A stretch of 49,779 nucleotides of DNA, taken from a virus. The DNA lies in IMG/VR virus record IMGVR_UViG_3300047178_000244, positions 1 through 49,779 of that record. One strand, written 5' to 3'. The notes under the pieces were generated by a model. The model saw only the letters and a program-made list of their open reading frames with translations, was not told the origin of the DNA and searched no databases. Numbering within the stretch: position 1 is the stretch's first letter; every line of letters starts with the position of its first letter. The position numbers were made by a program, and so were the translations under genes. Shown here in pieces: positions 21,688 through 35,133 of the stretch.

Positions 21688-22242
21688 TCAGGACTCCGGC
21701 TGCTGGATAGGTAGGGAGAGGACGATTTCCGGGCCGTCCGGGCAGTCCGCGCAGCCGCCCACCGCGTCGGGTTCGACCACGTCCCAGGACTCCGACCACT
21801 CGAGCGCGAACCGGATGGACACGCCGCCGGTGACGCGCTGCTCGGACGATGCGGCCTCCGGGAACTCGATGCGGGTCCGGACGCTCGCGCAGCGCTCGAC
21901 GAGCCCGGCGACGCCCAGGAGAGCCGGTGACGTCAGGATGGCGTTCTCGACGGCGCCCGCGATCTGCTCGAGCAGCGCCTCGACGTCCTCGGCGGTGTCC
22001 GCGGCGGCCTGGGTTTCCACCGCCATCTCGCAGCTCACGCCGTAGCGGGATTCCGCCGAAGACAGAGAGTGAGCCGTTTTGGTTTCCTCCCAGCCGTATA
22101 CGAGCACCGCTGGAAGCTGGAATCCTTGCACGGGCCAGATGCGCGCGCGGAATACGGTGCCGCCGAACGGGATTACGGCCGCCTGCACCAGCGAGGCGAC
22201 GAGGTCGCGTACGGCGGCGCGCCCGGGCAAGAGCGTGCTCAT
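21688..22242 (-). CDS. Tail completion/terminator-like protein (Mu gp37-like), tentative
   Basis: 184 aa. The call rests on position between the head-tail joining gene and the gp38-like and sheath genes. Confidence 0.55.
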   Translation of the reverse strand: MSTLLPGRAAVRDLVASLVQAAVIPFGGTVFRARIWPVQGFQLPAVLVYGWEETKTAHSLSSAESRYGVSCEMAVETQAAADTAEDVEALLEQIAGAVENAILTSPALLGVAGLVERCASVRTRIEFPEAASSEQRVTGGVSIRFALEWSESWDVVEPDAVGGCADCPDGPEIVLSLPIQQPES

Positions 22243-22559
22243 CGCGTGCCCTGCAGGCCGAGGAAGATATGGCCGTGGCTGTCGGGCTCGACCGTGACCA
22301 CCTTCCAGGTGCCTCCGCCGACCTCGGCCGTGTCGCCCTGTGCAAGGCAGACACCGGCGGGAACGGAAGCGGCGCGAAGCCCGAGGACAGGCCGCCGCGA
22401 GCTGATGGCCGCGCCGATGTCGTTGAACTTCACCTCGAGATATTCGCGATCAAACACGCCGGTTACGGCAAATGGCTGGCCGCCCTTGGGCGAGTAGACC
22501 GCGGCCTGCCCGAACGCTTTCATCCCGGCAACTAGGGCGCGGTCGAAATCAACGGCCAC
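22239..22559 (-). CDS. Head-tail joining/adaptor protein (gpFII-position), tentative
   Basis: 106 aa. GTG start with GAGGGTG RBS. It is the first gene after the major capsid gene. The pattern FG..AVY.P..G....V.GVF ... GD.A.V.G..W.V..V.PD resembles head-tail attachment proteins. Confidence 0.55.
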   Translation of the reverse strand: MAVDFDRALVAGMKAFGQAAVYSPKGGQPFAVTGVFDREYLEVKFNDIGAAISSRRPVLGLRAASVPAGVCLAQGDTAEVGGGTWKVVTVEPDSHGHIFLGLQGTR

Positions 22560-22586
22560 GGCGTCACCCTCACGTTTTTTCGTAAT

Positions 22587-22618
22587 CAGGGCGGCCCCAA
22601 GTATTCAGGGCCGCCCTG
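22587..22618 (-). promoter_or_regulatory. Perfect 11-bp GC hairpin just downstream of the major capsid gene
   Basis: CAGGGCGGCCC-(10 nt)-GGGCCGCCCTG. On the sense (minus) strand it is followed by AUUACGAAAAAACG with no U tract, so it is an attenuator or mRNA-stabilising structure rather than a canonical terminator. Confidence 0.6.
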
Positions 22619-22631
22619 TGGTTTCCGCAGA

Positions 22632-23663
22632 TTACATCGTGCCGGTCAGGAGAACTTCCGGACGGGTGCACATGAACAGCGGGTAGGAATACAGCTCCAT
22701 CTTCCAGTAGCTGTTGCGCAGCAGGTCCGGGATGGGGAGCAGGTACTCGACCTTGCCGGGGGTGTTCACCCACTCGATGGACTCGCCGGGCGCCTGGGCC
22801 TGGTCGAAAACCGCCTTGCTGGCCGGGAAGATGATGCAGCCGTTCGCCGGGACCGCGATCGTGGTCTTGTCGTTGCTGCCGCGGTAGTTCATGAACGTGA
22901 GGCCGCCGAAGGCGAAGGCCGAGAACGCGGCACCGGCGCTGCCGTCGCGGATCTCGCGGGCCTCGTTCCAGTTCACGAAGGTCCTGATGACGTCTGGATG
23001 GTTGACGAACGCGTCGTAGAATGCATCGCCGCACAGGACCACGATTTCGCAGTCGTCTTCGACCGCGCCCTGGCTGTTGCGCAGGATGGTCCGGCGGATG
23101 CCGTTGCACAGCGGGCGCAGGCTGTTCGGCGTGCCAGCGGCCAGGTTGAAGGCGATCGCGCCGGGGCGGGCGATCTGGAACTCGGCGAAGAGATCATAGA
23201 CCACCGAGCTGTCCTTGGGATCGAGCACGTAGCCCTGAACCGCGGCGAGGCGCAGATACTCGCGGGTGTACTCCATCCTCTTCTGAAGGCCGGTGGGACC
23301 GGAGACGCGGCGGCCAACTTCGGCTTCGACCTGCATCAACTCGGTCTCGGACCCGAACGCGCGGACGTCCTGCAGCTCGCTGGCCCACACGGTGTCGTCG
23401 GCCATCAGGCGCTTGGTCGCGAAGGTGAGCGCGTTGCGCTTCTCGGTCACGCGGTTCTGGCCTTCCTCGCCGCGCTCGCTGAACGGGATGAGCGTGAGCA
23501 CGCCCTGCCGGTCTTCGACGAACAGGCTCTTGGTGCGGATCGGCTTCAGGTTGAAGAAGTCGAGCTTGCCGAGACCCGTGGGCAGGTAAGGCACCTTCTC
23601 GATGCTGTTCGTCAGCGAAATCGCCGAGAAGGCATCGTTGGTGAAGACGTTCAGCGAGGCCAT
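22632..23663 (-). CDS. Major capsid protein, lambda gpE-like
   Basis: 343 aa starting MASLNVFTNDAFSAISLTNSIEKVPYLPTGLG, typical of the Phage_cap_E family. AAGGAG RBS precedes it. It follows the decoration gene. Confidence 0.9.
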   Translation of the reverse strand: MASLNVFTNDAFSAISLTNSIEKVPYLPTGLGKLDFFNLKPIRTKSLFVEDRQGVLTLIPFSERGEEGQNRVTEKRNALTFATKRLMADDTVWASELQDVRAFGSETELMQVEAEVGRRVSGPTGLQKRMEYTREYLRLAAVQGYVLDPKDSSVVYDLFAEFQIARPGAIAFNLAAGTPNSLRPLCNGIRRTILRNSQGAVEDDCEIVVLCGDAFYDAFVNHPDVIRTFVNWNEAREIRDGSAGAAFSAFAFGGLTFMNYRGSNDKTTIAVPANGCIIFPASKAVFDQAQAPGESIEWVNTPGKVEYLLPIPDLLRNSYWKMELYSYPLFMCTRPEVLLTGTM

Positions 23664-23674
23664 ATCGGGGCTCC

Positions 23675-24052
23675 TTAGCGGACGATTACGTGAACGGCGG
23701 CGAGCTGCTGCCCGGCCGCGGTGATCTGAGCCTGCGTGAGCGCGCCGTAGACGAGCTCGCCGCCGTTCACCTCGCAGTCGCGCACGACCACGGCGCACGG
23801 CGTGTTCCCGTTCGTCGCGTTCACGTCGGCGTAGAGGATGCCGAAGGCGTTCTCGGAACCGTCAGTCGCGGCCGGGCTCAGCGCGGTGATAAGGCCGGTG
23901 TCGGTGATCAGGCCGACGATGCTGCCGCAAGGCAGGTTCTGACCGGCAGCCATGGTCGCGCGGTCAATGCTGCGGTGGCCGCTCGCCATCGAGATGACGA
24001 AGCCCCCCATGTGCCAGCTTTCGACGAGCGGAGTCTGCGGAACGTATACCAT
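23675..24052 (-). CDS. Head decoration protein (lambda gpD-like)
   Basis: 125 aa. ...GSIVGLITDTG...DGSENAFGILYADVNA...AVVVRDCEVNGGEL... fits the gpD-family pattern. It lies between scaffold and capsid genes. Confidence 0.8.
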   Translation of the reverse strand: MVYVPQTPLVESWHMGGFVISMASGHRSIDRATMAAGQNLPCGSIVGLITDTGLITALSPAATDGSENAFGILYADVNATNGNTPCAVVVRDCEVNGGELVYGALTQAQITAAGQQLAAVHVIVR

Positions 24053-24067
24053 TTTTCGTAACTCCGA

Positions 24068-24652
24068 TTAGCGGCGGTTGCCGGTGCGGGATGCCGCCTC
24101 GCGGGCCTTCTGCATGGACGCGACCATGTGGCTTTCGGCAGCCGCGCCACGGTTGGGTGCGCCGCCGCCGAGCTGCGGGTTGCGCTCCGACCGTGCGGAC
24201 GATGCCGGGCTGGACGTCGCGGCGGCCGGAGCCTCGGCGAGCAGGCCGGTGATTGCCTTCGCGCTCAGGTTCGTGGTCGCGAGCAGCTTGGCGCCCATGG
24301 CCGGTGCCCTGGCGAAGGCCTTGTTGCCCAGCACGGCGGCCCAGCGGGCGCGCTCGGCGGAACGGGCCGACTTGGCGTCCCTCTTGTCCTTGCCGTCGTC
24401 CTCGTCCTCGTCGGACTCTTCCATGTCGGCGTCGGAACCGTCGTCCTCGTCGTCGGCCTTCGCCTTCGACTTGGCCTTCGCCTTCTTGGACTTCTTGTCG
24501 TCCTCTTCCTCGGCGTCCTCGTCGGGGTTCTCGTCCTCGCGGTCCTTGTCCTTGTCCTCGGACTCGGCGCGCGCGCCGGAAGCCGGAAGGGCGATGCCGG
24601 AGAGGTGGGCGAAAGAAACGGCCGTGGCGTCGGCTTCGGTCGGGAGCGGCAT
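24068..24652 (-). CDS. Scaffolding protein (Nu3-like) with an extreme acidic low-complexity tract
   Basis: Acidic tract: ESEDKDKDREDENPDEDAEEEDDKKSKKAKAKSKAKADDEDDGSDADMEESDEDEDDGKDKRD. It is followed by ERARWAAVLGNKAFARAPAMGAKLLATTNLSAKAITGLLAEAP, a motif usually found after S49 prohead proteases. Confidence 0.65.
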   Translation of the reverse strand: MPLPTEADATAVSFAHLSGIALPASGARAESEDKDKDREDENPDEDAEEEDDKKSKKAKAKSKAKADDEDDGSDADMEESDEDEDDGKDKRDAKSARSAERARWAAVLGNKAFARAPAMGAKLLATTNLSAKAITGLLAEAPAAATSSPASSARSERNPQLGGGAPNRGAAAESHMVASMQKAREAASRTGNRR

Positions 24653-24667
24653 CTCAGGTTCCTCGAT

Positions 24668-25561
24668 TTACTTCAGGGACGCCGCGAGGGCGCGGAATGC
24701 CGCGTCGGGGCTCATCACATCGTCAGCGTATCCGACCGCGACTCCATTCCCGCCGAGGTACGTGAGGGCCTGCGTCTTGCGGACGTCGGAAGCCTTCATG
24801 TTCCTGTTGCGGGCAACGGTCTCGATGAACATGTCGCCAAGATTGTTGACGTCCGCTTGGAACCTCTCGAGCGCGCCTTCGGACAAGGGCTTCATCGGAG
24901 AACCGTCGGCCTTGTGCTCGCCGCACGTGATCAGGGTTACGGAAATCCCGGCCTTTTCGAGCGCCGCAGAGAAATCCGTGTGCATGCAGATGACGCCGAC
25001 GCTGCCGGTGCCGCCCGTTCGGGGAACGGTGATGCGGTCGCAGGCGCTGGCGATTGCGTAAGCCGCCGAATACGCGGACTCGTTCAGCACGGCCCACGTG
25101 GGCTTCATGCCGCGGGCTGCGTAGACCGTGTCGGCGAAGTCGAAGCAGCCGGACACCTCGCCGCCGGGCGAGTCGATGTCGAACAGGACGCCCTTGACCG
25201 CCGGGTCCACCAGGGCGCCCAGGAAGGCGGTGCGCAGCGCGTCGTAGCCGGTGCCCCAGTATGAGTACGGCGACATGTAGCCGCACCGCTGCATCAGGGT
25301 GCCGCGCACCGGGATTACGCCGACGTCGCCCACCACGGTGTAGCCCTTGTAGTCGCCCCAGGCCTTGGCGGACGTATGGTCATCGCCGTCTTCGAGCTCG
25401 GCGCGGCCGCGCAGCGGGACTAGACGGCCGTCCGGCCGACGCATGCTGCCGCCGCCAATCTGGGCCGCCAGCGCAGCCACCAGGACCTCGGCGTGGTCGC
25501 CGCTGACGGCCCACGGCCTATTAAATAAGCGGGCGGCGAGGAAATCGGACCGGGAAGACAC
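24668..25561 (-). CDS. Prohead maturation protease, S49 (SppA/lambda gpC-like)
   Basis: Family signatures: VLFDIDSPGGEVSGCFD, SAYSAAYAIASACDRI and GGTGSVGV. GTG start. Confidence 0.9.
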   Translation of the reverse strand: MSSRSDFLAARLFNRPWAVSGDHAEVLVAALAAQIGGGSMRRPDGRLVPLRGRAELEDGDDHTSAKAWGDYKGYTVVGDVGVIPVRGTLMQRCGYMSPYSYWGTGYDALRTAFLGALVDPAVKGVLFDIDSPGGEVSGCFDFADTVYAARGMKPTWAVLNESAYSAAYAIASACDRITVPRTGGTGSVGVICMHTDFSAALEKAGISVTLITCGEHKADGSPMKPLSEGALERFQADVNNLGDMFIETVARNRNMKASDVRKTQALTYLGGNGVAVGYADDVMSPDAAFRALAASLK

Positions 25562-25607
25562 GGGGCGGCCTCGGACGGGTTGCTACCCGCCCAGGATGCC
25601 CCCCGCG

Positions 25608-25618
25608 GTCTCCGATCC
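25608..25618 (-). promoter_or_regulatory. Late-module motif GGATCGGAGAC (copy between portal and protease genes)
   Basis: It lies in the 100-nt portal-protease spacer. Confidence 0.4.
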
Positions 25619-25661
25619 GGGCGGCCTACGCGCTCTGACGCAATGCGTTCGGGCCCGAGGA

Positions 25662-27416
25662 TCAGTCCGGCTTCTCGTCTTCCTGGAGGTCCGTGGCGCC
25701 CTTCTTGGCGTCCGCAGGCGCGGTCCCGGACCAGTCCGGCGGCGTCATGTTGCGCTCCTTGAAGAACGCGAGCTCGACGGCCCTCTGCTCCACGTTCTCC
25801 TGCCAGTCGCTGCCGTTTTCATCGGCGCAGACGTCGCGCAGCGTCCTGATTCCGGCTTCCATGCCCAGGACTTCCGCCTGCCTTTCTTTCACGCCATCGA
25901 TCACCCCCGCACCCGGCCCGCGCCAGCCGCAACGGGAGTAATACTCGCGCGCCTCGACGAAATCCGGGGCACCGGCGGGCAGCGGGACCAGTCCGCGCTC
26001 GTGAACCTCCTGCAGCCAGACGGCGTAGTGCTTGTTCGCGAAGCTCGTGTTGAACTCGGTCACCCTGCGGCGCGCGGTCTTCTCCGTCTGAGCGAAAGCG
26101 GCCCGGACAGAGCTGTAGTTGACCTTCGAGAAATCTTGCGTGAGCCCCTCGAACGGAATGTTGAGTGCAGAGGCCGTGTTCCTGAGCATCTCGGCGGCAA
26201 AAGGCCCAAAACCTGCGTTCGGCCTCTCCGCGGTGACGGTCTCGATGGACTCACCGGCGGCCAACGTAGGGATGGATACCCCGTTCATCTGCGGGCGGCG
26301 CTCCTCATGGAAGGCTGCCCGGTAATCCTGGTAGGCACCCAGGCCGCCGAGATTCAGGCCGTCGCCCGTTGGGCTCAGCTCGTCTTCTGCCAAGGCCGGG
26401 TCGAAAGGGCTCTTGATGAAAAGGCCGAACATGCTGGCAACGGTGGCCGCCTGCAGCTCCACGCCGTAGTATTTCGACAGCATCTTCATGCGACCCATAA
26501 CGGGCGTGAAAACGCCAACTCCCCTGTGCGTGTCAGCCCTGTTGCGGACGGTGTGGTGCAGCACGCGCTGCCAGCCGTCGTCGTCCTCACGCTCCACGCG
26601 CTCCCAGATGTAGGAGTCCGACATGTCGTAGAAGCTGTTGGGCTCGCCCTTCCGCATCCAGTATGCCTGCGGCGCGCCGCGGCGCTCGTCGAGCTCGATG
26701 CCGCCGCGGAGGAACTGGTGGTCCATCTGCTGGAAGGGATTCGACAGCCGGTCCGGATCGATGATCTGCAGCGAGGTGGCAAATTTCGCGCGGCCGCGCC
26801 CGATGTCCTCGGGGAACCACAAGTGAACCCCGAGCGCCTCGCCGTCGACGAGGTAATGCCAAAGCGCCTGCCTAAATTGTTGCGTGGTCGTCAGTGACCG
26901 GTGGACGTCGTTCCAGTGCCCGTTGGACTCCGAGTAGGCACGCCACAGGCTCTCGACCGTTTTCCGGTATTCGTTAGCCCATACTGCGTCGAAGCCTGGG
27001 CCGAACTCGCGCGACAGGCTGATGTAGTCAGGGGTACAGGTCAGCCGGTATGTGCCGCCGAGCAGCGCGTCCAGCATCCTGTCAATCCCGCCGCCCGCCC
27101 AACCGTCGTTGCGCACCAGGTCGCGGCTGCGGGCCACCATGCGGTCGCGGTAGAGGTTCGTTTCGGCGTCCGGACCTTTTACAACCGGCAGCCACTCGGA
27201 CATTTCCTGCGTAGAGACGGCGGCCGCATCATACGGATACGCAAAACCCTGCCAGCCGCCCTGGAGTCCCGCCTTGTGCTTGGGGCGCACGGTGTCCGCG
27301 ATGGGGACGATGCCGCCGTTCCCGATCGTGGGTTCGCGGCGCGGCTGCGCGGGGGTGCTTCCCGGGATGATGAGGCCGCCGATGCGGCTGATAATACCCA
27401 TTTTCGTGAACCTCAA
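25662..27416 (-). CDS. Portal protein, lambda gpB family (start TTG 27416 or ATG 27401)
   Basis: LYRDRMVARSRDLVRNDGWAGGGIDRMLDALLGGTYRL is typical of lambda-type portals. 584 aa. Confidence 0.9.
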   Translation of the reverse strand: MRFTKMGIISRIGGLIIPGSTPAQPRREPTIGNGGIVPIADTVRPKHKAGLQGGWQGFAYPYDAAAVSTQEMSEWLPVVKGPDAETNLYRDRMVARSRDLVRNDGWAGGGIDRMLDALLGGTYRLTCTPDYISLSREFGPGFDAVWANEYRKTVESLWRAYSESNGHWNDVHRSLTTTQQFRQALWHYLVDGEALGVHLWFPEDIGRGRAKFATSLQIIDPDRLSNPFQQMDHQFLRGGIELDERRGAPQAYWMRKGEPNSFYDMSDSYIWERVEREDDDGWQRVLHHTVRNRADTHRGVGVFTPVMGRMKMLSKYYGVELQAATVASMFGLFIKSPFDPALAEDELSPTGDGLNLGGLGAYQDYRAAFHEERRPQMNGVSIPTLAAGESIETVTAERPNAGFGPFAAEMLRNTASALNIPFEGLTQDFSKVNYSSVRAAFAQTEKTARRRVTEFNTSFANKHYAVWLQEVHERGLVPLPAGAPDFVEAREYYSRCGWRGPGAGVIDGVKERQAEVLGMEAGIRTLRDVCADENGSDWQENVEQRAVELAFFKERNMTPPDWSGTAPADAKKGATDLQEDEKPD

Positions 27417-29086
27417 AACATCGGGCGGATGGGGCGGCGTTTACGGACGAGCCCGAGTGCGCCAGCCAAATCGCGAATTCTCTTCCGTAAACCGTCGGCA
27501 TTTGCGCTCGTGTAGGTGACCGACTTCCCACCCGCGCCCTGGCTGTAGGAGATGTTGACCTCCCTCTGGCCGCTCTCCAGGTCCTGGAGGGCCGCCTGGG
27601 AGTCCGCCAGCCATTGCTGGAGGGTCGCCACGGGCACCCCGATGTATTCGGCCGGGACCGTGGGCCTGTTCCAGGAGCCGGTGCAGCCGCCGATGAAGTC
27701 CCATCCCTGGGGCTGGAGGGTCGCCGGTGCCGCGAGGACCGCGAGGCCCGCCCCGATGGCGCCTGCGCCGACCGAAAGGTTCGCGGGGTTGCCATAGAAA
27801 TCCGTTATAGTAATGGGGGTAACGCCAGCCGTAACAGCGACCGTTATCCCTGTTATCGTAACGCTCCCGGAGACCTCGCCCTGCGCCTGGGGGCTGTAGA
27901 CGAAGCCCAGCATCGGGCCGCTCGCGTATGCAAGAGGCACCTGTGCACCATTGGAGAGCACGAGAGACACGGCAGCGCCGGGAGCCACCACGACGGGCTT
28001 GCTGAAGCTGACCCGGACCTCCGTAGATCCGCCGCCCAGGCTGACGGTAGTGGTGGTCGCGACCGCGCCGGTGACCACGGCGGCCGTGCCGTCGAGCAGG
28101 ACGTCTGGAAGCAGCGCGGAGACGTAGGCCGCACCCCAGAGAGGGTTCCCAGACATGTCCGTGATGCTCGCACCGGCGGCCAGGACGAGCGCGCCGACCT
28201 GCAGCTGGCCCGGCGCCTGACCGACGGGAACGGCGACGCGGAAAGCGAGCCGGGTCGAGGTGGTCTGGGTCAGATCGGCGGCCGCCACGCCAGCCGATGT
28301 CGCCAGGGTGAGGATGCCGACGGCGACGCACGGCTTGCTGAGGCCGAGGAAGATTTCGATTTCCTGGGCAGCACCGTAGAGCCCGGCCTGCGCCGAGATG
28401 GTGCCGACCTTGGGCATGACCCCGTCGATGATTACGCCAGCCAAGGAAACAGCCGCGCCTCCAAGGACAAGCGGGTTCCCGGCTGCGTCGGTGAGGCCCG
28501 CGCCGGGGTTCAGGAAAGAGACGGCCAGCGGGTTCGCCGACATGCCCCATTGAACCGTCAGATCGAAGCGCAGGTTCTGGCTGGTGCTGCCGGTGGGATT
28601 GTAGACGGCCGCGCCCACGCCCGTGAACAAGACCGGAGGCTGCGCGGCGTCCACGAGGCGGACCGGGGTGGACGTCGCGACGTAGATCGGGATTACGGAC
28701 TCGCCCGAGTAGGTGCCCGCGGCTGCGCTGACGCCGGTGATCGTGGGCAGCGCGGCGGCCGCATAGACCCCGTTCAGCACGCCAGCGGTGACGCCTCCGG
28801 AGAGCGGAAGCCCGGTCGCCACGGAGACGATTGAGCCGCCGTTGAGGGCGAGGTCCGTTACGGCCAGCTGCACGGCGAGCCCGGCTGGAACGAGGAACGC
28901 GAAGACGGCGACCGCGCCCTGCTGCGACGAGAAGGATGCCGCGCCAGCGTTCAGGTCTAGCGATGGCGACGGTCCCAGCAAGGAAACCGGTGCCGAGAAG
29001 GTTACGGAAATCGGGATGACCGAGCCTGCGCGGTAGTTTCCAGCCGGTGCGGTGACGCTGAGCACGGTGAGCGGGCTGCCGGACAC
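27413..29086 (-). CDS. gpW-like head-tail joining domain fused to four tandem Ig-like repeats (557 aa)
   Basis: The C-terminal 70 aa, VATLQQWLADSQAALQDLESGQREVNISYSQGAGGKSVTYTSANADGLRKRIRDLAGALGLVRKRRPIRPMF, align by eye with lambda gpW (..AALHDLMTGKR..VEFTATSVSDLKKYIAELE..RRRGPAGF). Upstream are four ~111-aa repeats, each starting (V/I)xxxxAxAGxYxxGxxIxI and ending xLxxGxxIxDxxGNPL. GTG 29086 has AGGAG 7 nt upstream. Confidence 0.75.
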   Translation of the reverse strand: MSGSPLTVLSVTAPAGNYRAGSVIPISVTFSAPVSLLGPSPSLDLNAGAASFSSQQGAVAVFAFLVPAGLAVQLAVTDLALNGGSIVSVATGLPLSGGVTAGVLNGVYAAAALPTITGVSAAAGTYSGESVIPIYVATSTPVRLVDAAQPPVLFTGVGAAVYNPTGSTSQNLRFDLTVQWGMSANPLAVSFLNPGAGLTDAAGNPLVLGGAAVSLAGVIIDGVMPKVGTISAQAGLYGAAQEIEIFLGLSKPCVAVGILTLATSAGVAAADLTQTTSTRLAFRVAVPVGQAPGQLQVGALVLAAGASITDMSGNPLWGAAYVSALLPDVLLDGTAAVVTGAVATTTTVSLGGGSTEVRVSFSKPVVVAPGAAVSLVLSNGAQVPLAYASGPMLGFVYSPQAQGEVSGSVTITGITVAVTAGVTPITITDFYGNPANLSVGAGAIGAGLAVLAAPATLQPQGWDFIGGCTGSWNRPTVPAEYIGVPVATLQQWLADSQAALQDLESGQREVNISYSQGAGGKSVTYTSANADGLRKRIRDLAGALGLVRKRRPIRPMF

Positions 29087-29135
29087 GTGAGAGCTCCTGC
29101 CGCAGGAAAGGGCGTTCCCAGCGTAGCGGCAGGCG

Positions 29136-29145
29136 GCTCCGATCC
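29136..29145 (-). promoter_or_regulatory. Late-module motif variant GGATCGGAGC (copy upstream of the Ig-gpW gene)
   Basis: It is intergenic, 6 nt after the HTH gene stop. Confidence 0.35.
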
Positions 29146-29151
29146 GGTCGG

Positions 29152-29370
29152 CTACCCGGCGCGGACGCGGCGACGCCAGCCGACCGGCGGCGGCAGATCG
29201 CCGTGGGCTGCTACCAGGCTGCGCAGCCATTCTGCTACAGCAGGCGGCACGGTGCGGTCTGCGGAAACCCATCGGCGCACGAGACGATCATCAGCATCGA
29301 GCGAGGCGGCGAGCCAGCGCATCGACCAGCCGAGCGCATCGAGGCATTTCACGAGTTCTTCGGGGGGCAT
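29152..29370 (-). CDS. Small HTH regulator divergent from the antisense island
   Basis: 72 aa: MPPEELVKCLDALGWSMRWLAASLDADDRLVRRWVSADRTVPPAVAEWLRSL (HTH-like). AAGGAG RBS precedes ATG 29370. Confidence 0.65.
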   Translation of the reverse strand: MPPEELVKCLDALGWSMRWLAASLDADDRLVRRWVSADRTVPPAVAEWLRSLVAAHGDLPPPVGWRRRVRAG

Positions 29371-29546
29371 TTTAGGGTCTCCTTTTCCTGTTCCGATGGT
29401 CCCTACCCGCGAGGCACGAGTCAAGACTCTTGAATGTCTGACAACAGGTTTGACAAATCGAACGCTGCGTCAAACGCAGGTAAGCCATGCGCGAAACGGA
29501 TAAACGACTTGCTCGCATTCTGCCGCACCAAGGGGGACTATAAATG

Positions 29547-29581
29547 CAGAGGCGGACACGAACCCCACCGCCACGGAGAGA
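29547..29581 (+). repeat. Conserved 5' leader element copy 1 (CAGAGGCGGACACGAACCCCACCGCC-ACGGAGAGA)
   Basis: 26 nt are identical to 30415..30440, and a shared ACGGAGAGA RBS block follows. It contains the hairpin GGCGG-12 nt-CCGCC and ends 5 nt before ATG 29587. Confidence 0.85.
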
Positions 29582-29586
29582 GCATC

Positions 29587-30249
29587 ATGAGCCACGCTTA
29601 CGAAATCGGCGCGAGTGAGGAGATGGACCGGCTGAAGCTGGTTTTCGAAGATGCAGCGTTCGGCGTGCGGGCGATGCAGGGTGTAAACCGCGTGGGCGGT
29701 CGCCGCGACGCTTCCGGCAAGACGACACACTACGTTTTCCCGCCGGAAGTCAGGGGCGACGTCGAGGCGGCGATCGCGAAGGCCGTGGCTCGCGAGGAAG
29801 CGCAGCGCGTCTGGGAAGCTGCCGCTCCGCAGCGCGAGGCCGAGGCCAAGGCGGCGCAGAAGCGAGCGAAAGCCGAGGCGAAGGCAGCCGCTGACGCCGC
29901 GGTAACCGCAGAAATCGGGAAATGGACTCAAGACGGCGCGGTTTGCTTCCTGCGGATTGAATACGCGAAGGGCGCTCCGCTGAAGCTTCGGGCGGCTGGA
30001 GCAAGCTGGGACTCTATCGGCAGCGTCTGGGTTTTCCCGTTCTCCGCCCGCCCGGCCGTCGAAAAGCTGCTGCCGAAGCTGAAGGATCTGGCCATGAAGC
30101 AACGCAAGCGCGATGCACAGAGCGCCCGTGGTCTGCTGGATCTTAGCGACGACATGCTTGAGCAAATGGCCAACGATGGCGTATTGGGCAACGACATAAA
30201 CGCGAGCGGCGCCGATCTCCGCCGCGAGATTCGAGCTTGCCGCATCTGA
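29587..30249 (+). CDS. Island gene A: hypothetical protein with Ala/Lys/Glu-rich linker and a DUF5710-like C-terminal motif
   Basis: 220 aa. VCFLRIEYAKGAPLKLRAAGASWDSIGSVWVFPFSA resembles the Y-x-x-K-x-x-x-K-x-x-GA-x-WD-x-x-x-K-x-W-x-VP domain. GGAGAG RBS precedes it. Confidence 0.6.
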   Translation: MSHAYEIGASEEMDRLKLVFEDAAFGVRAMQGVNRVGGRRDASGKTTHYVFPPEVRGDVEAAIAKAVAREEAQRVWEAAAPQREAEAKAAQKRAKAEAKAAADAAVTAEIGKWTQDGAVCFLRIEYAKGAPLKLRAAGASWDSIGSVWVFPFSARPAVEKLLPKLKDLAMKQRKRDAQSARGLLDLSDDMLEQMANDGVLGNDINASGADLRREIRACRI

Positions 30250-30269
30250 GCGGAGCAATCGAAGCAATG

Positions 30270-30300
30270 GGGCCGCTTCCGAGAACGGGGCGGCCCTTTT
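30270..30300 (+). terminator. Rho-independent terminator after island gene A
   Basis: GGGCCGC-13 nt-GCGGCCC followed by TTTTG. Confidence 0.7.
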
Positions 30301-30414
30301 GCTGTCCGGAATTTGCGTGGACAATTCGTATACTGCAACTAGTGCATACCTGGATATTGCGGCAAGCATGAACGTGAACTTTGCCTCCTGCCGCATTTTG
30401 AGGGACCATCGGAT

Positions 30415-30450
30415 CAGAGGCGGACACGAACCCCACCGCCCACGGAGAGA
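30415..30450 (+). repeat. Conserved 5' leader element copy 2
   Basis: Same as 29547..29581 with one extra C. It ends 5 nt before ATG 30456. A shared TGCCGCA box lies upstream (29521 and 30389). Confidence 0.85.
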
Positions 30451-30455
30451 ACGTC

Positions 30456-30893
30456 ATGACCGACATCATCGCCGACGGACCCGTAGCCGAAGTCGTGCAG
30501 CAGCTGGTTGTGGACATCGACCACGCCCACGACTGGACCCTCGACATCAACTTGGCTGTCGCCAGGTCGGCACGTGCGCTCCAGACCATGACGAAAGCCG
30601 ATTGCGGGGCATATGCCCGCTACTACGCAGTGACAATCCTGGACGCCCTGGAAGCCTGCGATGCGCGCATAGGCAACCCGCAGCCCGAAGGCACGCTGGA
30701 GTGGATACTCAACGGCATGCCACCTGCCGATGGCTTCTGCGAGGCAGATCTTGTAGCTCGCGGCGCGCTGTCCTCGCTCGTGGGCGCGCTGGAAAACCTC
30801 AGGTCCGAAGACGGCGGGCGGAACGATTTCTACGCCCTGGAGAGCCGTTGCGCCGATGCGGCGCTCGTGAGCTGCCTGCCCACCGCGGCATAG
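30456..30893 (+). CDS. Island gene B: hypothetical acidic protein (145 aa)
   Basis: The ORF is preceded by the conserved leader and a GGAGAGA RBS. I recognise no motif. Confidence 0.6.
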   Translation: MTDIIADGPVAEVVQQLVVDIDHAHDWTLDINLAVARSARALQTMTKADCGAYARYYAVTILDALEACDARIGNPQPEGTLEWILNGMPPADGFCEADLVARGALSSLVGALENLRSEDGGRNDFYALESRCADAALVSCLPTAA

Positions 30894-30964
30894 CATCGGC
30901 GACCAAGGACAGCCCGCCGAGGCCCGCCACCGGACACGGGGCGCGCCTTTTTCATGCCATAAAG

Positions 30965-30981
30965 GGTGCACACATGCATCG
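30965..30981. promoter_or_regulatory. 17-nt element GGTGCACACATGCATCG upstream of island gene C
   Basis: Identical to 44935..44951. It contains TGCA-CACA-TGCA. Confidence 0.45.
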
Positions 30982-31032
30982 CCAGCGCTATCATTGGCGC
31001 AAGGGTGCAAGCCCACGGACCAGGAGGACTAC

Positions 31033-31620
31033 ATGACCAGCCTTCCCGACTACGAGATGGGGTTCATCAACGGCGACAGAGGATGCCCGCCTGTTCCCCA
31101 GTTCTCCCCCGAGTTCAGGCGCGGGCATGATCACGGTGTCGCCCATAGAAAGTATCGCCAGGATAAGGAAGCGGAAAACATTTCGGCGGCGGCTGCCCGC
31201 AAGGCCGCAGGCGACATTTTCAGCAACGGAGTTCGCCTGTCCGATGGCCTGATTTATACGGCAGAATGGGACCGCGACGGCTGCGACAGGCAATTCCTAG
31301 CCGGATACCACACCTTCGATATTTACCGGCAGGATCGACAGAACGAGCGCGACTATTGCGGCACGATGCATGTAGTCGCCAGGGACGACCTCGGCCTTAT
31401 AGCCTTCTACCCGGTCGAACGCTTCTGCCACGCAGAGGATTACGTCGCTCCCGAACCCGAACCCAAGCCGAAGCGGCCATCTGGTTCCAATGCCGACGAT
31501 TGGGTGCTTTTCCTCGACGAGAACCTTCGCATCGAGAACGGCCGCATCAGCGGTATCGGTTACCTAGCTGTGCAGATCGCCGAGGCGCTGGATTGCTTAA
31601 AGACGATAGGGGGCGCGTGA
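31033..31620 (+). CDS. Island gene C: hypothetical protein (195 aa)
   Basis: AGGAGG lies 6 nt upstream of ATG 31033. GC is lower than the surroundings. Composition is rich in D/R/Y/F. I recognise no motif. Confidence 0.6.
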   Translation: MTSLPDYEMGFINGDRGCPPVPQFSPEFRRGHDHGVAHRKYRQDKEAENISAAAARKAAGDIFSNGVRLSDGLIYTAEWDRDGCDRQFLAGYHTFDIYRQDRQNERDYCGTMHVVARDDLGLIAFYPVERFCHAEDYVAPEPEPKPKRPSGSNADDWVLFLDENLRIENGRISGIGYLAVQIAEALDCLKTIGGA

Positions 31621-32477
31621 TGACCCCGTCCATCATCGCCATCCACGGCCGCGCCGGGGCAGGCAAGGGCGTCATCTCAGGTCACCTCGTCGAGCGGCAC
31701 GGCTACACGGCCGTGAAGGTCGCCGCCCCGATAAAAGCCATGATGCGGGCAGCTCTCATGTATGGCGCCGGGCTCTACGGCGATGACCCGGACCTGGACC
31801 GCTGCATCGAGGGCGACCTCAAGGAGGTTCCCGTCCCGCGACTAGGCGGACACACCCCGCGCTACGCTATGCAGATTCTCGGCACCGAGTTCCAGGACGC
31901 GGTCTGCCGCGGAATATTTGCGCGCATCGCGGCGGAGGCGACCCGCAAGGTTGTCGCCGCTGGCGGCCGAGCCGTCGTGGACGACCTGAGGTTCCCGGTG
32001 GAGGTCCGCCACCTGAGGGAGCAGGGCGCCGCGTTCTGGCGCGTTGACCGCTCCGACGTCCAGGAGCTCGCCGCAGGTCGCTGCCGCCGCTCCACCCCTT
32101 GGGACCCGTCCGAGCCGCCGCGCGTGCCCGATCAGGTTGTGGTAGACCACATGGTCTGGGCGCTTCTCATGAGCTGCGGTCTGGACGACAAGGAAGCCCT
32201 GCAGAGGGCTGTGGGATACCGCGGCGACGAGCCCTGGGCATACATCGGCAAGTCGGCGAACGTGTGCCGCTACGCCTTGTCGGCAATCTGGCTCGAACGG
32301 CTGCGGCGACCGGCTCCGGCCGTCACGCACGCCTCGGAGCGCGGGCTGCCCGCTAAGACGTTCGACGTCGTTCTCGTGAACAAGGGGACCACCCACGACC
32401 TGCGCCGTGAGGTTGAGTGCGCCCTTCAGAGGTCGCCGCAGCCTTACTACGGCATCGCGGACAGGAGGGCGGCATGA
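31620..32477 (+). CDS. Island gene D: P-loop dNMP-kinase-like protein with a ~90-aa insertion
   Basis: The Walker A is IHGRAGAGKGV. APIKAMM, RYAMQILGTEF and VVDDLRFPVEVRHLREQGAAFWRVDR ... THASERGL ... FDVVLVNKGT match the phage deoxynucleoside-monophosphate kinase pattern. The start overlaps gene C's stop (TGATG). Confidence 0.65.
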   Translation: MTPSIIAIHGRAGAGKGVISGHLVERHGYTAVKVAAPIKAMMRAALMYGAGLYGDDPDLDRCIEGDLKEVPVPRLGGHTPRYAMQILGTEFQDAVCRGIFARIAAEATRKVVAAGGRAVVDDLRFPVEVRHLREQGAAFWRVDRSDVQELAAGRCRRSTPWDPSEPPRVPDQVVVDHMVWALLMSCGLDDKEALQRAVGYRGDEPWAYIGKSANVCRYALSAIWLERLRRPAPAVTHASERGLPAKTFDVVLVNKGTTHDLRREVECALQRSPQPYYGIADRRAA

Positions 32478-32671
32478 CTTGCTACGCCCCCGTCGCCCGC
32501 CGCCCGCACTCCGACGCGGCCGACGAGAACCTGGACCACTGGCCTTATCCGGCGTCCCTGGACATCTACGAGGCCGACCGACGCCCGGTGGACACTGGCC
32601 TCCTGGACGGTCACGGAACGCCCATATACCGGCTGCCCGAGCAGCGCCGCATCGGGTTCCGCCCCCTATAA
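32474..32671 (+). CDS. Island gene E: hypothetical 65-aa protein
   Basis: AGGAGGG RBS. ATGA overlap with gene D. Confidence 0.5.
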   Translation: MTCYAPVARRPHSDAADENLDHWPYPASLDIYEADRRPVDTGLLDGHGTPIYRLPEQRRIGFRPL

Positions 32672-33034: not shown

Positions 33035-33064
33035 GCCCGCTTCCACCTGGAGGCGGGCCTTTTT
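33035..33064 (+). terminator. Rho-independent terminator closing the island (abuts the terL stop codon)
   Basis: GCCCGC-12 nt-GCGGGC followed by CTTTTT. On the minus strand no U tract follows the hairpin. Confidence 0.7.
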
Positions 33065-35133
33065 CATGCCATCCGCCGCACCAGGGCCCGCAACCGCTCC
33101 TGCCGGGTCATCTGCTTCGACGCGGGCGCCGCAGCCGGTGGCTTGGACTGCGCGGGAGTGGCGGCGGCCGGTGCCGGGACATGGGCGGCCTGGGGCTCGG
33201 GGGCGTCCGGGAGCGGCGCGACGTCGTCGGGCGGCTCGGGTGCGGGCCGTGCCGGTTCGCCGGGCGCCGGGCAGACGTGGGCGGCGAGCTGGTTGAGCTT
33301 CAGGCCGTAGAAGGCGAGCCCGCACAGCGCGGCGTAGGCGTAAACCCGGATGTCGAGGGCTTCGTTGGCACGCCCGGAACGCTGTTCCCACACCCGCACC
33401 TTCACGCCGCGGACCGTCTTCTCGACCAGGGACTCGGCGAGGAGCTGGGAGAAATAGCCGAGGTCGCGTTCCGCCGGGAAGTGCATGTAGCCCGGTGCCG
33501 GGCCGCCGTCCTCCGGCCGTTCCTGGGCGAGCCGGGACCGGATGATGTCCTTGGCGGCGTTCACGCCGATGGTGATCGGGCGGTAGCTCGCCTTCGCCCG
33601 CGACGTCGGCCTCTTCGTGGGCCACACGGGGCTGCGCGCGCCGCCGATGGCCGGATCGCCCCTGATGGCCCACCACTTCCGCGCGAGGTTGGCCCGGGAG
33701 AAGTTGTAGATCGCCTGGGTGCGGCGGCCGCCGGAGTCGAGGCACGCGGCCACAACCTTGAACTCGACGCCGTCCGCCCGCTTCCACTTCCTCTTCAGGA
33801 ACTCGGCCAGCTTCTCCATGGTCTCCGGATCGTCCGGGTCGCCGTCGATGACCTCGTGCGCGATGCTCCACGACTCTTCGTTCGCCCCCCAGCCGACGAC
33901 CTCGACCTCAAGCCGAGCCTGATGGGTGTCCACGCCCGCCGTCAGGATCGCGACGCCGTCGGGCACCTCCGCGTTCCAGACCTCCGTGCGCGCAGCCAGC
34001 TTGTTTTCCGACAGGTCCTGCTCGCCGCGGTCCTCGAAGGTCTCGCCCAAGACGAGGTTCACGAACGTCTGCAAGGCCAGCGGATCGCTCTTGGCTTCCA
34101 GGAACTCGGCGACGAGCTTCGGCCAAGCGGCGTTGACCATAAGGCTCATGCCCGACCACAGGTGAAACCCCGCCAGCCCCGGCGCCTTGGCCTTCTTCGT
34201 AGGCCGCCAGACGCCGCGGGCATCCATCCACGGCAGATCCACCCACTCGATGCGGCAGCCCTTGCCCTCGCAAACGTAATGGGCGGTCTCGGGCAAGTGC
34301 GTGCCGTCCTCGGCCTTCTCCCACTTGATGCCGTGCGCGACGTCGGCCCCGCCCCACTTTAGGTATTGCTCGGTCTTGCAGTGCGGGCACGGGACGAAGA
34401 ACCGCCGCTGGTCGGTGTCCTTCCAGGCCTTGTCGATGCGGGAGATGGCCGATTTCGTAGGGGTGGACCCCAGCACCATGCGCCGGTTCCAGAAGGTCTC
34501 GCCACGCTTCCACGCCAGCCCGACTTGATCGCCGTCCGCCCCGGCGCCGCCAACGTGATAGCCGTCCACTTCGTCGAGCAGCATGATCCGGCAGGTTATG
34601 CCGCGGAAGCCGTCCGGGGAGTTTGACCCGATGAGCCGCAGCGAGCTGCCGTTCAGGAAGCTCTTTTTCGTAATCGTCTGCGCGGTGTCGCGGGCCCTGG
34701 CCGGGGGGCACAGTTCGGCGAGGACCGGCGTATCCCGCAGCATCGGGGCGATTTCCGACTTGCTGTAGTCCTCGGCGTCCTCGCCGCGCGGCCGGACCAC
34801 GAGGATGGGCGCCGGGTCCTGATGGATGTAGTAGCCGATGGCGTGGTCCAGCACCCGGGTGAAGCCGACGCGGGCGCTCTTCTTGACGATGATCCTGTCC
34901 AGGGTCGGGTCGGTGATCGCGTCCATCAGGCCGACCTGGTAGCCGTAAGCCGTGAAGGCGCCCGTCTGGGAGTTGGTCTCACGGCTGAGGACCGCATGCT
35001 CCTTGGCCCACTCGCTCAGGGTCAGCTTGGGAGGCGGCCGTAGGTTCAGCACCCGTGCGTTAGCCAGGGCAAAGCGCAGCGCCTCCAGGCCATCGGCATA
35101 GCGTTCGGCGGGGATGTCAGGCCGCTGGCGCAT
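33064..35133 (-). CDS. terL: Terminase large subunit, lambda gpA family
   Basis: 689 aa. The Walker-A-like segment is IIVKKSARVGFTRVLDHAIGYY. The C-terminal nuclease region is typical of Terminase_GpA. It overlaps the small-subunit gene. Confidence 0.95.
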   Translation of the reverse strand: MRQRPDIPAERYADGLEALRFALANARVLNLRPPPKLTLSEWAKEHAVLSRETNSQTGAFTAYGYQVGLMDAITDPTLDRIIVKKSARVGFTRVLDHAIGYYIHQDPAPILVVRPRGEDAEDYSKSEIAPMLRDTPVLAELCPPARARDTAQTITKKSFLNGSSLRLIGSNSPDGFRGITCRIMLLDEVDGYHVGGAGADGDQVGLAWKRGETFWNRRMVLGSTPTKSAISRIDKAWKDTDQRRFFVPCPHCKTEQYLKWGGADVAHGIKWEKAEDGTHLPETAHYVCEGKGCRIEWVDLPWMDARGVWRPTKKAKAPGLAGFHLWSGMSLMVNAAWPKLVAEFLEAKSDPLALQTFVNLVLGETFEDRGEQDLSENKLAARTEVWNAEVPDGVAILTAGVDTHQARLEVEVVGWGANEESWSIAHEVIDGDPDDPETMEKLAEFLKRKWKRADGVEFKVVAACLDSGGRRTQAIYNFSRANLARKWWAIRGDPAIGGARSPVWPTKRPTSRAKASYRPITIGVNAAKDIIRSRLAQERPEDGGPAPGYMHFPAERDLGYFSQLLAESLVEKTVRGVKVRVWEQRSGRANEALDIRVYAYAALCGLAFYGLKLNQLAAHVCPAPGEPARPAPEPPDDVAPLPDAPEPQAAHVPAPAAATPAQSKPPAAAPASKQMTRQERLRALVRRMA

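What the first reader, a model, noticed from the sequence alone, without database searches (positions are those of the whole stretch)
27413..29086. gpW head-tail joining domain fused to four tandem Ig-like repeats
Lambda gpW is a 68-aa protein. Here the clearly gpW-like C-terminal 70 aa (AALQDLESGQR ... VTYTSANADGLRKRIRDLA ... KRRPIRPMF) sit at the end of a 557-aa ORF.

The first ~485 aa consist of four ~111-aa repeats with the signature of adhesin or S-layer Ig-like domains. Each starts like LSVTAPAGNYRAGSVIPISVTFSAPV, ITGVSAAAGTYSGESVIPIYV or VGTISAQAGLYGAAQEIEI. Each ends like LNPGAGLTDAAGNPL, AGASITDMSGNPL or ITITDFYGNPA. gpW binds the portal after packaging, so such a fusion would place a ring of Ig-like arms at the neck. 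That could act as a collar, whisker or carbohydrate-binding decoration made from a connector protein.
Basis: partly seen in the sequence, partly recalled or inferred. Interest (0 to 1): 0.7.

Follow-up and report, generated by a model that had tools for sequence, protein, structure and literature searches.

The report
Phage neck adaptor carrying Ig-like arms
A temperate phage encodes its only head-to-tail adaptor (lambda gpW type) as a 557-residue protein whose first 450 residues are four Ig-like domains. The virion neck should therefore carry a ring of twelve built-in arms, an arrangement I found in only two other uncultured phages and in no paper.

Summary
ORF 27416-29086 (minus strand, GTG start with an AGGAG ribosome-binding site, 557 aa) is coding throughout. 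It ends in a genuine gpW domain: Pfam PF02831 at 39.9 bits against a cut-off of 22.5, and a predicted helix-hairpin-helix at pLDDT 80-92. Before that come four tandem beta-sandwich domains (aa 4-112, 113-223, 224-334, 335-453) and a 22-residue flexible linker.

The gene sits just upstream of a lambda-type portal in a lambda-like head module, and it holds the only gpW domain on the 49.8-kb contig. No in-frame start codon could yield a free gpW.

Two other metagenomic phages carry the same fusion at the same position. One has 2 Ig-like domains (324 aa). The other has 12 or more plus about 900 extra N-terminal residues (2350 aa). All 30 other related gpW loci examined encode plain 75-138 aa proteins.

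The repeats are distant relatives of Big_5-type domains found in giant cellular surface proteins.

The most likely working: the full-length protein forms the 12-mer adaptor ring, and its arms act as neck whiskers that make contact with the host surface. Neck collars and whiskers are known, but as separate proteins. I rate this a new variant of a known kind. The function is untested and the host is unknown.

The parts
29094..29098 (-). Ribosome-binding site AGGAG, 7 nt upstream of the GTG start at 29086
   Evidence: Read directly from the sequence
27413..29086 (-). Whole gene: 557-aa fusion of Ig-like arms and a gpW adaptor domain, including the TGA stop at 27413-27415
   Evidence: ORF list. 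GC3 is 0.62-0.93 along the whole reading frame. Both records of the database cluster are 557 aa from this start.
28751..29077 (-). Ig-like domain 1 (aa 4-112), the end farthest from the portal
   Evidence: Repeat profile hit with E 1.1e-27. All-beta in the AF2 model, pLDDT 86-97.
28418..28750 (-). Ig-like domain 2 (aa 113-223)
   Evidence: Repeat profile hit with E 9.2e-37. AF2 pLDDT 88-97.
28085..28417 (-). Ig-like domain 3 (aa 224-334). It corresponds to the first domain of the 324-aa relative P0011.
   Evidence: Repeat profile hit with E 2.7e-33. P0011 aligns to query 227-557.
27728..28084 (-). Ig-like domain 4 (aa 335-453): a divergent, portal-proximal domain kept in all three fusions (motifs LSxGAxVxL, D-x-F/Y-GNPA, GxIGxGL)
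   Evidence: Repeat profile hit with E 3.6e-10. Three-way alignment at 41-46% identity. AF2 pLDDT 77-93.
27662..27727 (-). Flexible linker (aa 454-475), holding Cys468, one of only two Cys in the protein
   Evidence: pLDDT below 50 for aa 456-470. Sequence.
27416..27661 (-). gpW head-tail adaptor domain (aa 476-557): subfamily leader VPAEYIGVPVATLQQWL, then helix, beta-hairpin, helix and the basic C-terminal arm KRRPIRPMF
   Evidence: Pfam PF02831, PHROG 75, PDB 1HYW, alignment with plain gpW proteins of 84-104 aa, AF2 model
25662..27401 (-). Lambda-family portal gene immediately downstream. The likely ATG is at 27401, and its GAGG ribosome-binding site (27411-27414) overlaps the fusion's stop codon.
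   Evidence: Pfam Phage_portal_2, E 1.4e-84. Sequence.
33064..35133 (-). Large terminase (gpA type), the upstream member of the head-gene order TerL, W, portal
   Evidence: Pfam GpA_ATPase plus GpA_nuclease
22239..22559 (-). gpFII-type head-tail attachment protein, the expected partner that binds below the gpW ring
   Evidence: Pfam Phage_attach PF05354, E 3.7e-21

Best explanation
The gene encodes this phage's only head-to-tail adaptor.

After DNA packaging, twelve copies should bind under the lambda-type portal through the C-terminal gpW domain. In that domain the beta-hairpins line the channel and the free C-terminal arm grips the portal. The gpFII-type protein then binds below.

The extension is on the N-terminal side and joined by a roughly 22-residue flexible linker. 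It therefore leaves the portal-binding arm untouched and should emerge at the outer rim of the ring. The result would be twelve arms of four Ig-like domains each, built into the neck.

The most likely role of the arms is weak, multivalent binding to cell-surface or matrix polysaccharide. That would hold the virion at the host surface while the conventional tail fibre and baseplate find the receptor. This resembles the role proposed for other neck whiskers and for Ig-like decorations on phage particles.

The arms are built from the same domain type as giant cellular surface proteins. They have grown or shrunk at the distal end during evolution: 2, 4, or 12 or more domains.

What is shown: the fusion is real and coding, it is the sole gpW, its fold, its gene neighbourhood, and its recurrence. 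What is inferred: incorporation of the full-length protein, the outward orientation of the arms, and adhesion as their function.
For: The fusion is real.
- The frame is continuous and coding-like, with a good ribosome-binding site.
- The same junction occurs in three independent metagenomic contigs. Across domain 4, linker and gpW they share 44-46% identity.

It acts as the adaptor.
- It lies immediately upstream of the portal, followed by protease, gpD, gpE and FII, in all three phages; TerL lies upstream in all three, directly adjacent only in the 2350-aa relative.
- It holds the only gpW domain in the 49.8-kb contig and in the 27-kb and 15-kb relative loci.
- There is no in-frame start codon between aa 418 and 483 in the window, and no start with a Shine-Dalgarno-like motif in the 60 codons before the gpW domain of either relative.
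- The extreme C-terminus (RRRPxRPxF) is conserved and free. In lambda the C-arm (residues 55-68) binds the portal by beta-sheet augmentation, and 12 copies form the ring (PMC10721106).

The arms.
- AF2 with an alignment gives four beta-sandwich domains, a disordered linker and the gpW fold, at mean pLDDT 88.4.
- Foldseek matches are Ig-like arrays and adhesins.
- 12 of the 18 aligned repeat homologues (cellular-protein segments) hit Pfam Big_5 and 4 hit Big_12. The two closest ones whose loci I looked up are giant chromosomal proteins.

Outward orientation.
- The gpW hairpin lines the DNA channel (Arg32 clamps the DNA), so the far ends of the two antiparallel helices, which include the N-terminus, point away from the channel (inference).
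- Larger adaptors (SPP1 gp15, HK97 gp6, 80alpha gp49) have two extra N-terminal helices that gpW lacks, so additions at this end are tolerated (PMC11661146).

Precedent for function.
- Dodecameric Ig-like collars with whiskers sit at the adaptor periphery in Bas63, Sf14, XM1 and GP4. They are proposed to bind LPS or to brace the head-tail joint (PMC12609058).
- The phage has its own tail-fibre-like protein and baseplate, so the arms are accessory.
Against: - There is no experimental evidence. The phage is known only from metagenomic contigs and the host is unknown.
- Post-translational removal of the arms cannot be excluded.
- No carbohydrate-binding site or known lectin motif was identified.
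- The window's own repeats do not reach any Pfam threshold. They link to Big_5 only through homologues.
- The position of the gpW N-terminus in the ring was inferred from topology, not measured on coordinates.
- Twelve arms (in the 2350-aa relative, twelve chains of about 235 kDa) might be sterically demanding at the neck.
- In the window the gene is separated from the terminase gene by a 3.9-kb stretch whose ORFs are mostly on the opposite strand. No sigma-70-like promoter was detected for it, so its expression level is unknown.
Confidence: 0.55

Rival explanations
1. The arms are a structural collar or brace rather than an adhesin. They would fold back onto the capsid (for example onto gpD-type decoration protein near the portal vertex) or down onto the first sheath rings, and so reinforce the head-tail joint of a contractile-tailed virion.
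For: This role has been proposed for the XM1 gp40 and Bas63 collar and whisker complexes, whose whiskers touch the capsid decoration proteins, the tail terminator and the sheath (PMC12609058). The window encodes a gpD-type decoration protein and a contractile sheath. The portal-proximal domain 4 is specifically conserved among the three fusions, as expected for a domain with a fixed structural contact.
Against: The number of domains varies from 2 to 12 or more between relatives with very similar head genes. That is hard to reconcile with a fixed bracing geometry. The other 30 related gpW loci examined do without arms. The repeats come from the domain family of cellular surface proteins.
Confidence: 0.2
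2. Only the C-terminal gpW module ends up in the virion. The long form would be cleaved at the flexible linker, or a short form would be made separately. The N-terminal part would then be a released or cell-associated protein with another role, for example an assembly chaperone or a lysogen surface factor.
For: A disordered linker (aa 456-470, pLDDT below 50) separates the two parts and would be accessible to proteases. Every plain relative works with 75-138 aa.
Against: There is no in-frame start codon between aa 418 and 483, and no ribosome-binding site before the gpW domain in any of the three fusions. No signal peptide-like N-terminus is evident in MSGSPLTVLSV... (by eye only). In lambda, the head protease acts inside the prohead before gpW binds (established lambda assembly pathway, my own knowledge). 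The fusion has been kept in frame through divergence down to 39-46% identity.
Confidence: 0.12
3. The long ORF is an artefact: a chimeric assembly, a lost stop codon between two genes, or a decaying prophage gene.
For: The contig is metagenomic. Long spurious ORFs are common at 66% G+C. A related contig (L045) carries only the first 57 codons, next to integrase genes.
Against: Three independent contigs from different samples keep the same in-frame junction. Codon-position composition is coding-like throughout. The model is confident for all domains. All other head and tail genes in the window are intact. There is no alternative gpW.
Confidence: 0.03

Closest known systems
Bacteriophage lambda gpW (Pfam PF02831; PDB 1HYW; in virions 8K38, 8XOW and others), the rare 'gpW-type' head-tail adaptor
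   Same: The C-terminal 82 aa match the family above threshold. They share the predicted helix-hairpin-helix fold and the basic C-terminal arm. The gene lies directly before a lambda-family portal, in a head module that also has a gpA-type terminase, an S49 protease, gpD, gpE and gpFII.
   Different: It is eight times longer, with about 475 extra N-terminal residues (four Ig-like domains plus a linker). The tail is contractile, whereas lambda's is not. Lambda gpW and the other 30 related gpW loci I examined encode a single domain (68 aa in lambda; 75-138 aa in those loci).
Neck collar and whisker assemblies: T4 fibritin (Wac), Vibrio phage XM1 gp40, the Bas63 and Sf14 Ig-like collar with gp5 whiskers, and the Ralstonia phage GP4 fiber-tail-adaptor with Fiber-1
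   Same: These are fibres or Ig-like domains arranged with 12- or 6-fold symmetry around the adaptor ring. Proposed roles are transient surface (LPS) binding or bracing the head-tail joint (PMC12609058).
   Different: In all of those the collar or whisker is one or more separate gene products that dock onto the adaptor and head-completion rings. In Bas63 this includes a disulfide to adaptor Cys2. Here the arms are part of the adaptor polypeptide itself, and the adaptor belongs to the unrelated-in-sequence gpW type.
Ig-like domains displayed on phage structural proteins (T4 Hoc, the C-terminal Big_2 domain of lambda gpV, T5 pb10; Fraser, Yu, Maxwell and Davidson 2006, J Mol Biol 359:496, cited from my own knowledge and from the reference lists seen)
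   Same: Accessory Ig-like domains are appended to an essential virion protein. They are thought to give weak carbohydrate binding at cell surfaces.
   Different: As far as I recall, the reported carriers are capsid, decoration, tail-tube, baseplate and fibre proteins. The domains are usually C-terminal and are sometimes added by programmed frameshift. A head-tail adaptor carrier and an N-terminal array of 2 to 12 or more domains were not found in my literature searches.
Big_5 (PF13205, SbsA-type) and Big_12 bacterial Ig-like repeats of giant cellular surface proteins
   Same: The arm domains are homologous to these repeats. phmmer E-values to many 1000-6000 aa repeat proteins run down to 1e-131. 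12 of 18 such segments match Big_5 and 4 match Big_12. They share the ...TDxxGNPL... strand at the domain end.
   Different: The window's own domains fall below every Pfam threshold. The arrays are short and end in a virion adaptor domain, not in a secretion or anchoring module. The cellular proteins sit in ordinary chromosomal contexts.
Neck passage structure (NPS) proteins of lactococcal siphophages
   Same: An accessory, highly shuffled, carbohydrate-binding decoration at the phage neck (PMC10684548).
   Different: NPS proteins are separate proteins that are not homologous to gpW, and they occur in phages of Gram-positive hosts.

Membership tests
gpW head-tail adaptor (PF02831) | Sequence match to the family profile above the curated threshold | tested here: met
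   39.9 bits against a cut-off of 22.5, E 3.7e-10, aa 490-553 covering profile positions 3-63 of 66. PHROG 75, E 1.2e-15.
gpW head-tail adaptor (PF02831) | Two-helix bundle with an intervening beta-hairpin, followed by an extended C-terminal arm | tested here: met
   AF2 gives helix 486-504, strands 509-516 and 519-526, helix 527-543, and an unstructured 544-557, at pLDDT about 80-92. This holds both without and with an alignment. It is a prediction, not a solved structure.
gpW head-tail adaptor (PF02831) | Gene immediately upstream of a lambda-family portal in a gpA/gpB/gpC/gpD/gpE/gpFII head module | tested here: met
   The two fused relatives have the same order. In the window, a 3.9-kb stretch whose ORFs are mostly on the opposite strand lies between the terminase gene and the fusion.
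gpW head-tail adaptor (PF02831) | Small single-domain protein (68 aa in lambda, 75-138 aa in close relatives) | tested here: not met
   It is 557 aa with four extra domains. This is the point of the finding. The gpW module itself is complete.
gpW head-tail adaptor (PF02831) | Forms a dodecameric ring on the portal of DNA-filled heads and recruits gpFII | not testable with these tools
   Partners are present: portal (25662-27401) and an FII-type protein (22239-22559). It is the only gpW in the contig.
Bacterial Ig-like domain, Big_5 / SbsA type (PF13205) | Direct match of the window's repeats to the Pfam profile | tested here: not met
   No Pfam hit at E <= 0.1 outside the gpW domain.
Bacterial Ig-like domain, Big_5 / SbsA type (PF13205) | Homology through intermediates, and a beta-sandwich fold | tested here: met
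   Window repeats match giant repeat proteins (E down to 1e-131). 12 of 18 of those segments match Big_5, best E 3.1e-14. The AF2 model shows all-beta domains at pLDDT about 90, with Foldseek hits to Ig-like arrays at E 1e-8 (PDB) and 7e-13 (viral models).
Neck collar / whisker systems (T4 Wac, XM1 gp40, Bas63 collar plus whisker) | Collar or whisker encoded as a separate protein that docks onto the adaptor or head-completion rings | tested here: not met
   The arms and the adaptor form one ORF, with no internal start. It may work like these systems, but it is not a member of them.
Neck collar / whisker systems (T4 Wac, XM1 gp40, Bas63 collar plus whisker) | Fibres or Ig-like domains located around the neck of the virion | not testable with these tools
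   Inferred only, from the fusion to the adaptor and from the topology of gpW.

The most novel reading that the evidence does not exclude
The adaptor fusion may be a neck-anchored, modular receptor-binding organelle encoded inside the head module. Twelve host-derived adhesin-type arms would extend or shorten by domain gain and loss. In the 2350-aa relative they would carry a roughly 900-residue distal head of unknown fold. On this reading the arms perform the first, host-range-determining adsorption step, so host specificity would be partly written in a 'head' gene. They could also act as a mucus, biofilm or EPS anchor that positions the phage in its habitat.
Probability: 0.25. Interest if true: 0.75.

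Novelty: new variant of a known kind. Interest (0 to 1): 0.55.

Why it matters
Head-tail adaptors are treated as small, conserved plumbing parts. This one shows that the gpW scaffold tolerates N-terminal cargo from 240 to more than 2200 residues. It also shows that phages can build a neck collar or whisker directly into the adaptor, which fixes the copy number at twelve without a separate docking protein.

This matters in three ways:

- **Annotation.** A gene in the 'head' module may influence adsorption or host range.
- **Structural virology.** It is a fourth way to make neck fibres, beside the T4, XM1 and Bas63/GP4 solutions.
- **Phage engineering.** The gpW N-terminus could serve as a 12-copy display site at the neck.

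It also documents domain traffic between giant cellular surface proteins and a core virion protein.

Tried and rejected
- **Word-index homologue search, full protein.** It was swamped by low-complexity words and returned only the protein itself plus one unrelated 797-aa protein in a non-phage context.
- **Word-index search, 99 C-terminal residues.** It found nothing.
- **Word-index search, gpW alignment.** It listed only plain 81-118 aa proteins. It also failed to list the three known fusions, so that survey cannot be used to say long forms are absent.
- **Exact look-up of the window's protein.** Not on record.
- **Two scans of species-representative genomes, with the fusion and the portal.** They gave no close relative, so the host stays unknown. 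Portal hits were 25-26% identical prophages in Firmicutes MAGs.
- **A portal scan of viral contigs.** It gave only similarly distant hits.
- **GenBank phages.** The only match is the plain 100-aa gpW of Acetobacter phage phiAP1.
- **Scans aimed at the conserved proximal domain 4.** They recovered only the already known 2350-aa relative.
- **Single-sequence AF2.** It failed on the arms (pLDDT about 35) and was replaced by a run with a 31-row alignment.
- **Residues 1-923 of the 2350-aa relative.** By eye they look like a parallel beta-helix. Nothing supports this: there are no Pfam, PHROG or PDB sequence hits. I do not claim it.
- **Internal translation start or second gpW gene.** Searched for and not found.
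- **Recent DNA-level duplication of the repeats.** Not found.
- **L045.** It carries the first 57 codons at 87% protein identity. It turned out to be a mosaic remnant that shares only window 28874-29579 plus small fragments, so it says nothing about function.


Full report
**1. What is there**

The window is 66% G+C. On its minus strand there is a long ORF ending at 27413. The longest version starts at ATG 29272 (619 aa). Its first 62 codons overlap a 72-aa upstream gene and have non-coding composition. From GTG 29086 onward, third-position G+C stays at 0.62-0.93.

The GTG is preceded by AGGAG (29098-29094) with a 7-nt spacer. Both protein records in the database cluster give a 557-aa product from this start (one written with M, one with V at residue 1). 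The stop codon TGA (27415-27413) overlaps the GAGG ribosome-binding site of the next gene, whose likely ATG is at 27401.

**2. The C-terminal domain is gpW**

- Pfam PF02831 matches aa 490-553 at 39.9 bits against a cut-off of 22.5.
- PHROG 75 'head-tail adaptor Ad1' matches aa 487-557.
- Lambda gpW (1HYW, and the virion entries 8K38, 8XOW, 8XPM, 8XQB) is the best sequence match among solved structures.
- AF2 predicts helix 486-504, hairpin 509-516/519-526 and helix 527-543, both without and with an alignment.
- Aligned with plain gpW proteins of 84-104 aa from the exhaustive search, the fusion retains the whole module. This includes a subfamily-specific leader (VPAEYIGVPVATLQQWL) and the invariant RR in the C-terminal arm.

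**3. The N-terminal part is four Ig-like domains**

Segments R1-R3 are related to each other far beyond shuffled controls (z = 5.9-15.1). R4 is not significant pairwise. An iterated profile built from the three fused proteins recovers it (E 3.6e-10) and sets the limits at 4-112, 113-223, 224-334 and 335-453.

With a 31-row alignment, AF2 gives mean pLDDT 88.4 and pTM 0.67. The model has four all-beta domains, a disordered stretch at 456-470, and then the gpW fold.

Foldseek matches in the PDB are arrays of Ig-like, macroglobulin and IPT domains: complement C5 and C3, plexin, ICAM-5 D1-D4, the E. coli adhesin FdeC and filamin, with E down to 1e-8. Matches among viral models are virion proteins annotated Big-1, FN3, BACON and SbsA-Ig-like, with E down to 7e-13.

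The window's own repeats hit no Pfam model. They are nonetheless clearly homologous to repeats in hundreds of giant proteins: 435 representatives at E <= 1e-3 and 27 at E <= 1e-30. Of the 18 aligned repeat-homologue segments (from cellular proteins), 12 match Big_5 and 4 match Big_12. The two top hits I looked up lie in ordinary chromosomal neighbourhoods. There is no DNA-level repeat, so the duplications are old.

**4. Context**

On the minus strand the order is as follows:

| Gene | Coordinates |
|---|---|
| Small terminase | 35117-35764 |
| gpA-type large terminase | 33064-35133 |
| 72-aa HTH-like ORF | 29152-29370 |
| The fusion | 27413-29086 |
| Lambda-family portal | 25662-27401 |
| S49 protease | 24668-25561 |
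| Scaffold-like acidic protein | 24068-24652 |
| gpD | 23675-24052 |
| gpE | 22632-23798 |
| gpFII-type protein | 22239-22559 |

A contractile tail follows: terminator-like protein, sheath (19923-21407), tube, tape measure and a Mu/P2-like baseplate. A tail-fibre or tailspike-like protein (8796-10310), an endolysin (7781-8446) and an integrase (1676-2890) are also present. This is a temperate, contractile-tailed phage genome with a lambda-type head. The window is the entire 49,779-bp contig.

**5. Is it the working adaptor?**

A profile of the gpW subfamily, searched against all six-frame ORFs, finds one gpW domain only. This holds in the window and in both relative loci.

In the window there is no in-frame ATG, GTG or TTG between aa 418 and 483. 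Neither relative has a start codon with a Shine-Dalgarno-like motif in the 60 codons before its gpW domain. A separately initiated free gpW is therefore unlikely. If the phage is viable, the long protein must serve as its adaptor.

**6. Relatives**

The exhaustive search returned two other fusions.

- **P0003** is 2350 aa. Residues 1817-2350 align in one collinear stretch with query 5-557 at 39% identity.
- **P0011** is 324 aa and aligns with query 227-557 at 44% identity.

Both carry PF02831 at the C-terminus. In both, the gene lies immediately before a lambda-family portal. TerL directly precedes it in the P0003 contig; in the P0011 contig one opposite-strand gene lies between. The S49 protease, gpD, gpE and FII genes follow further downstream, with extra genes interposed after the portal in the P0003 contig.

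P0011 has 2 domains. P0003 has 12 contiguous domains plus about 2 more inside a roughly 900-residue N-terminal region with no detectable family.

Domain 4, the linker and gpW are 44-46% identical among the three and share motifs absent from the generic repeats. This points to a single ancestral fusion followed by gain or loss of distal domains.

The fusion is rare.

- Of 26 IMG/VR loci found with gpW-domain patterns, 25 encode 75-138 aa proteins. The only long one is P0003's contig.
- Five metagenome loci encode 82-95 aa proteins.
- The only GenBank phage hit, Acetobacter phage phiAP1, has a plain 100-aa protein between terminase and portal.

**7. How it most likely works**

In lambda, 12 gpW form the adaptor ring under the portal. 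The hairpins form the inner barrel and Arg32 clamps the DNA. The C-arm (55-68) binds the portal by beta-augmentation, and gpFII binds below (PMC10721106).

The fusion leaves the C-terminal arm free and adds everything at the N-terminus. By the antiparallel helix-hairpin-helix topology, the N-terminus lies at the end of the bundle away from the channel. The larger SPP1, HK97 and 80alpha adaptors have two more N-terminal helices than gpW (PMC11661146). This shows that this end accepts additions.

I therefore infer twelve tethered four-domain arms around the neck, roughly 15 nm long if extended (my estimate, taking about 4 nm per Ig-like domain).

Neck collars and whiskers with Ig-like domains are known in XM1, Bas63/Sf14 and GP4, and coiled-coil ones in T4. 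All of those are separate proteins. Proposed roles are transient LPS binding or bracing of the head-tail joint (PMC12609058).

Two observations favour surface adhesion over a fixed brace. The arm length is variable, and the domains belong to a family found in cellular surface proteins. Nothing here tests that choice.

**8. Novelty**

Seven full-text searches returned papers on gpW, neck fibres, collars and Ig-like decorations. None described an adaptor fused to Ig-like domains. gpW itself is described as a rare alternative adaptor (PMC4362835).

I classify the finding as a new variant of a known kind: a neck-whisker solution built into a gpW adaptor.

The limits are clear. All the evidence is computational, the host is unknown, and the word-index survey is blind to long forms. 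The true frequency of such fusions is therefore uncertain.

Noticed in passing
window 29434-33007 (+ strand): A block of about 3.6 kb with lower GC3 holds five or six ORFs on the opposite strand, between the large terminase and the fusion gene. It includes a dNMP-kinase-like protein (31626-32477; PHROG 139, E 3.7e-28) and ends at a terminator-like hairpin at 33035-33058. It splits the packaging and head gene row. The 2350-aa relative has no insert here and the 324-aa relative has one reverse gene, so this junction looks like an insertion hot spot.
   Followed up: partly
window 29152-29370 (-) and L045 9508-10214: A 72-aa HTH-like ORF lies directly upstream of the fusion. That ORF plus the first 70 or so codons of the fusion (window 28874-29579) are 91% identical to a segment of an otherwise unrelated 57.6-kb contig. 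There the gene stops after 57 codons and is followed by tyrosine-recombinase genes. This looks like a mosaic or decayed remnant.
   Followed up: partly
L003 10001-17053 (= IMGVR_UViG_3300047178_000166): A 2350-aa protein ends in gpW and sits between terminase and portal. It has 12 or more Ig-like domains and a roughly 900-residue N-terminal region with no Pfam, PHROG or PDB sequence match. If incorporated as a 12-mer, it would add about 2.8 MDa at the neck.
   Followed up: partly
window 27683-27685 (Cys468) and the linkers of P0003 and P0011: Each of the three fusions has a single cysteine in the linker just before the gpW leader (GGCTG, DPYCQP, VPCITA). Some plain relatives also have Cys in their N-terminal leader. 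In Bas63 the adaptor's Cys2 makes a disulfide with the collar, so inter-subunit disulfides at the neck are conceivable here. The positions do not align exactly.
   Followed up: no
window 17082-19058 (-): The tape-measure protein carries a C-terminal lysozyme or transglycosylase-like region (aa 460-597 match endolysin and lytic-tail-protein PHROGs).
   Followed up: no
window 22239-35764 compared with 12504-21407: The virion modules are hybrid: a lambda-type head (gpA, gpW, gpB, gpC, gpD, gpE, gpFII) joined to a Mu/P2-like contractile tail and baseplate. Acetobacter phage phiAP1 shows the same combination, with head genes followed by a tail sheath gene.
   Followed up: partly
tool behaviour: The word-index homologue search did not return the three fused proteins, even though two of their gpW domains were rows of the query alignment. 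It found nothing at all with the 99-aa C-terminus. Length surveys made with that tool under-report long multi-domain members.
   Followed up: no
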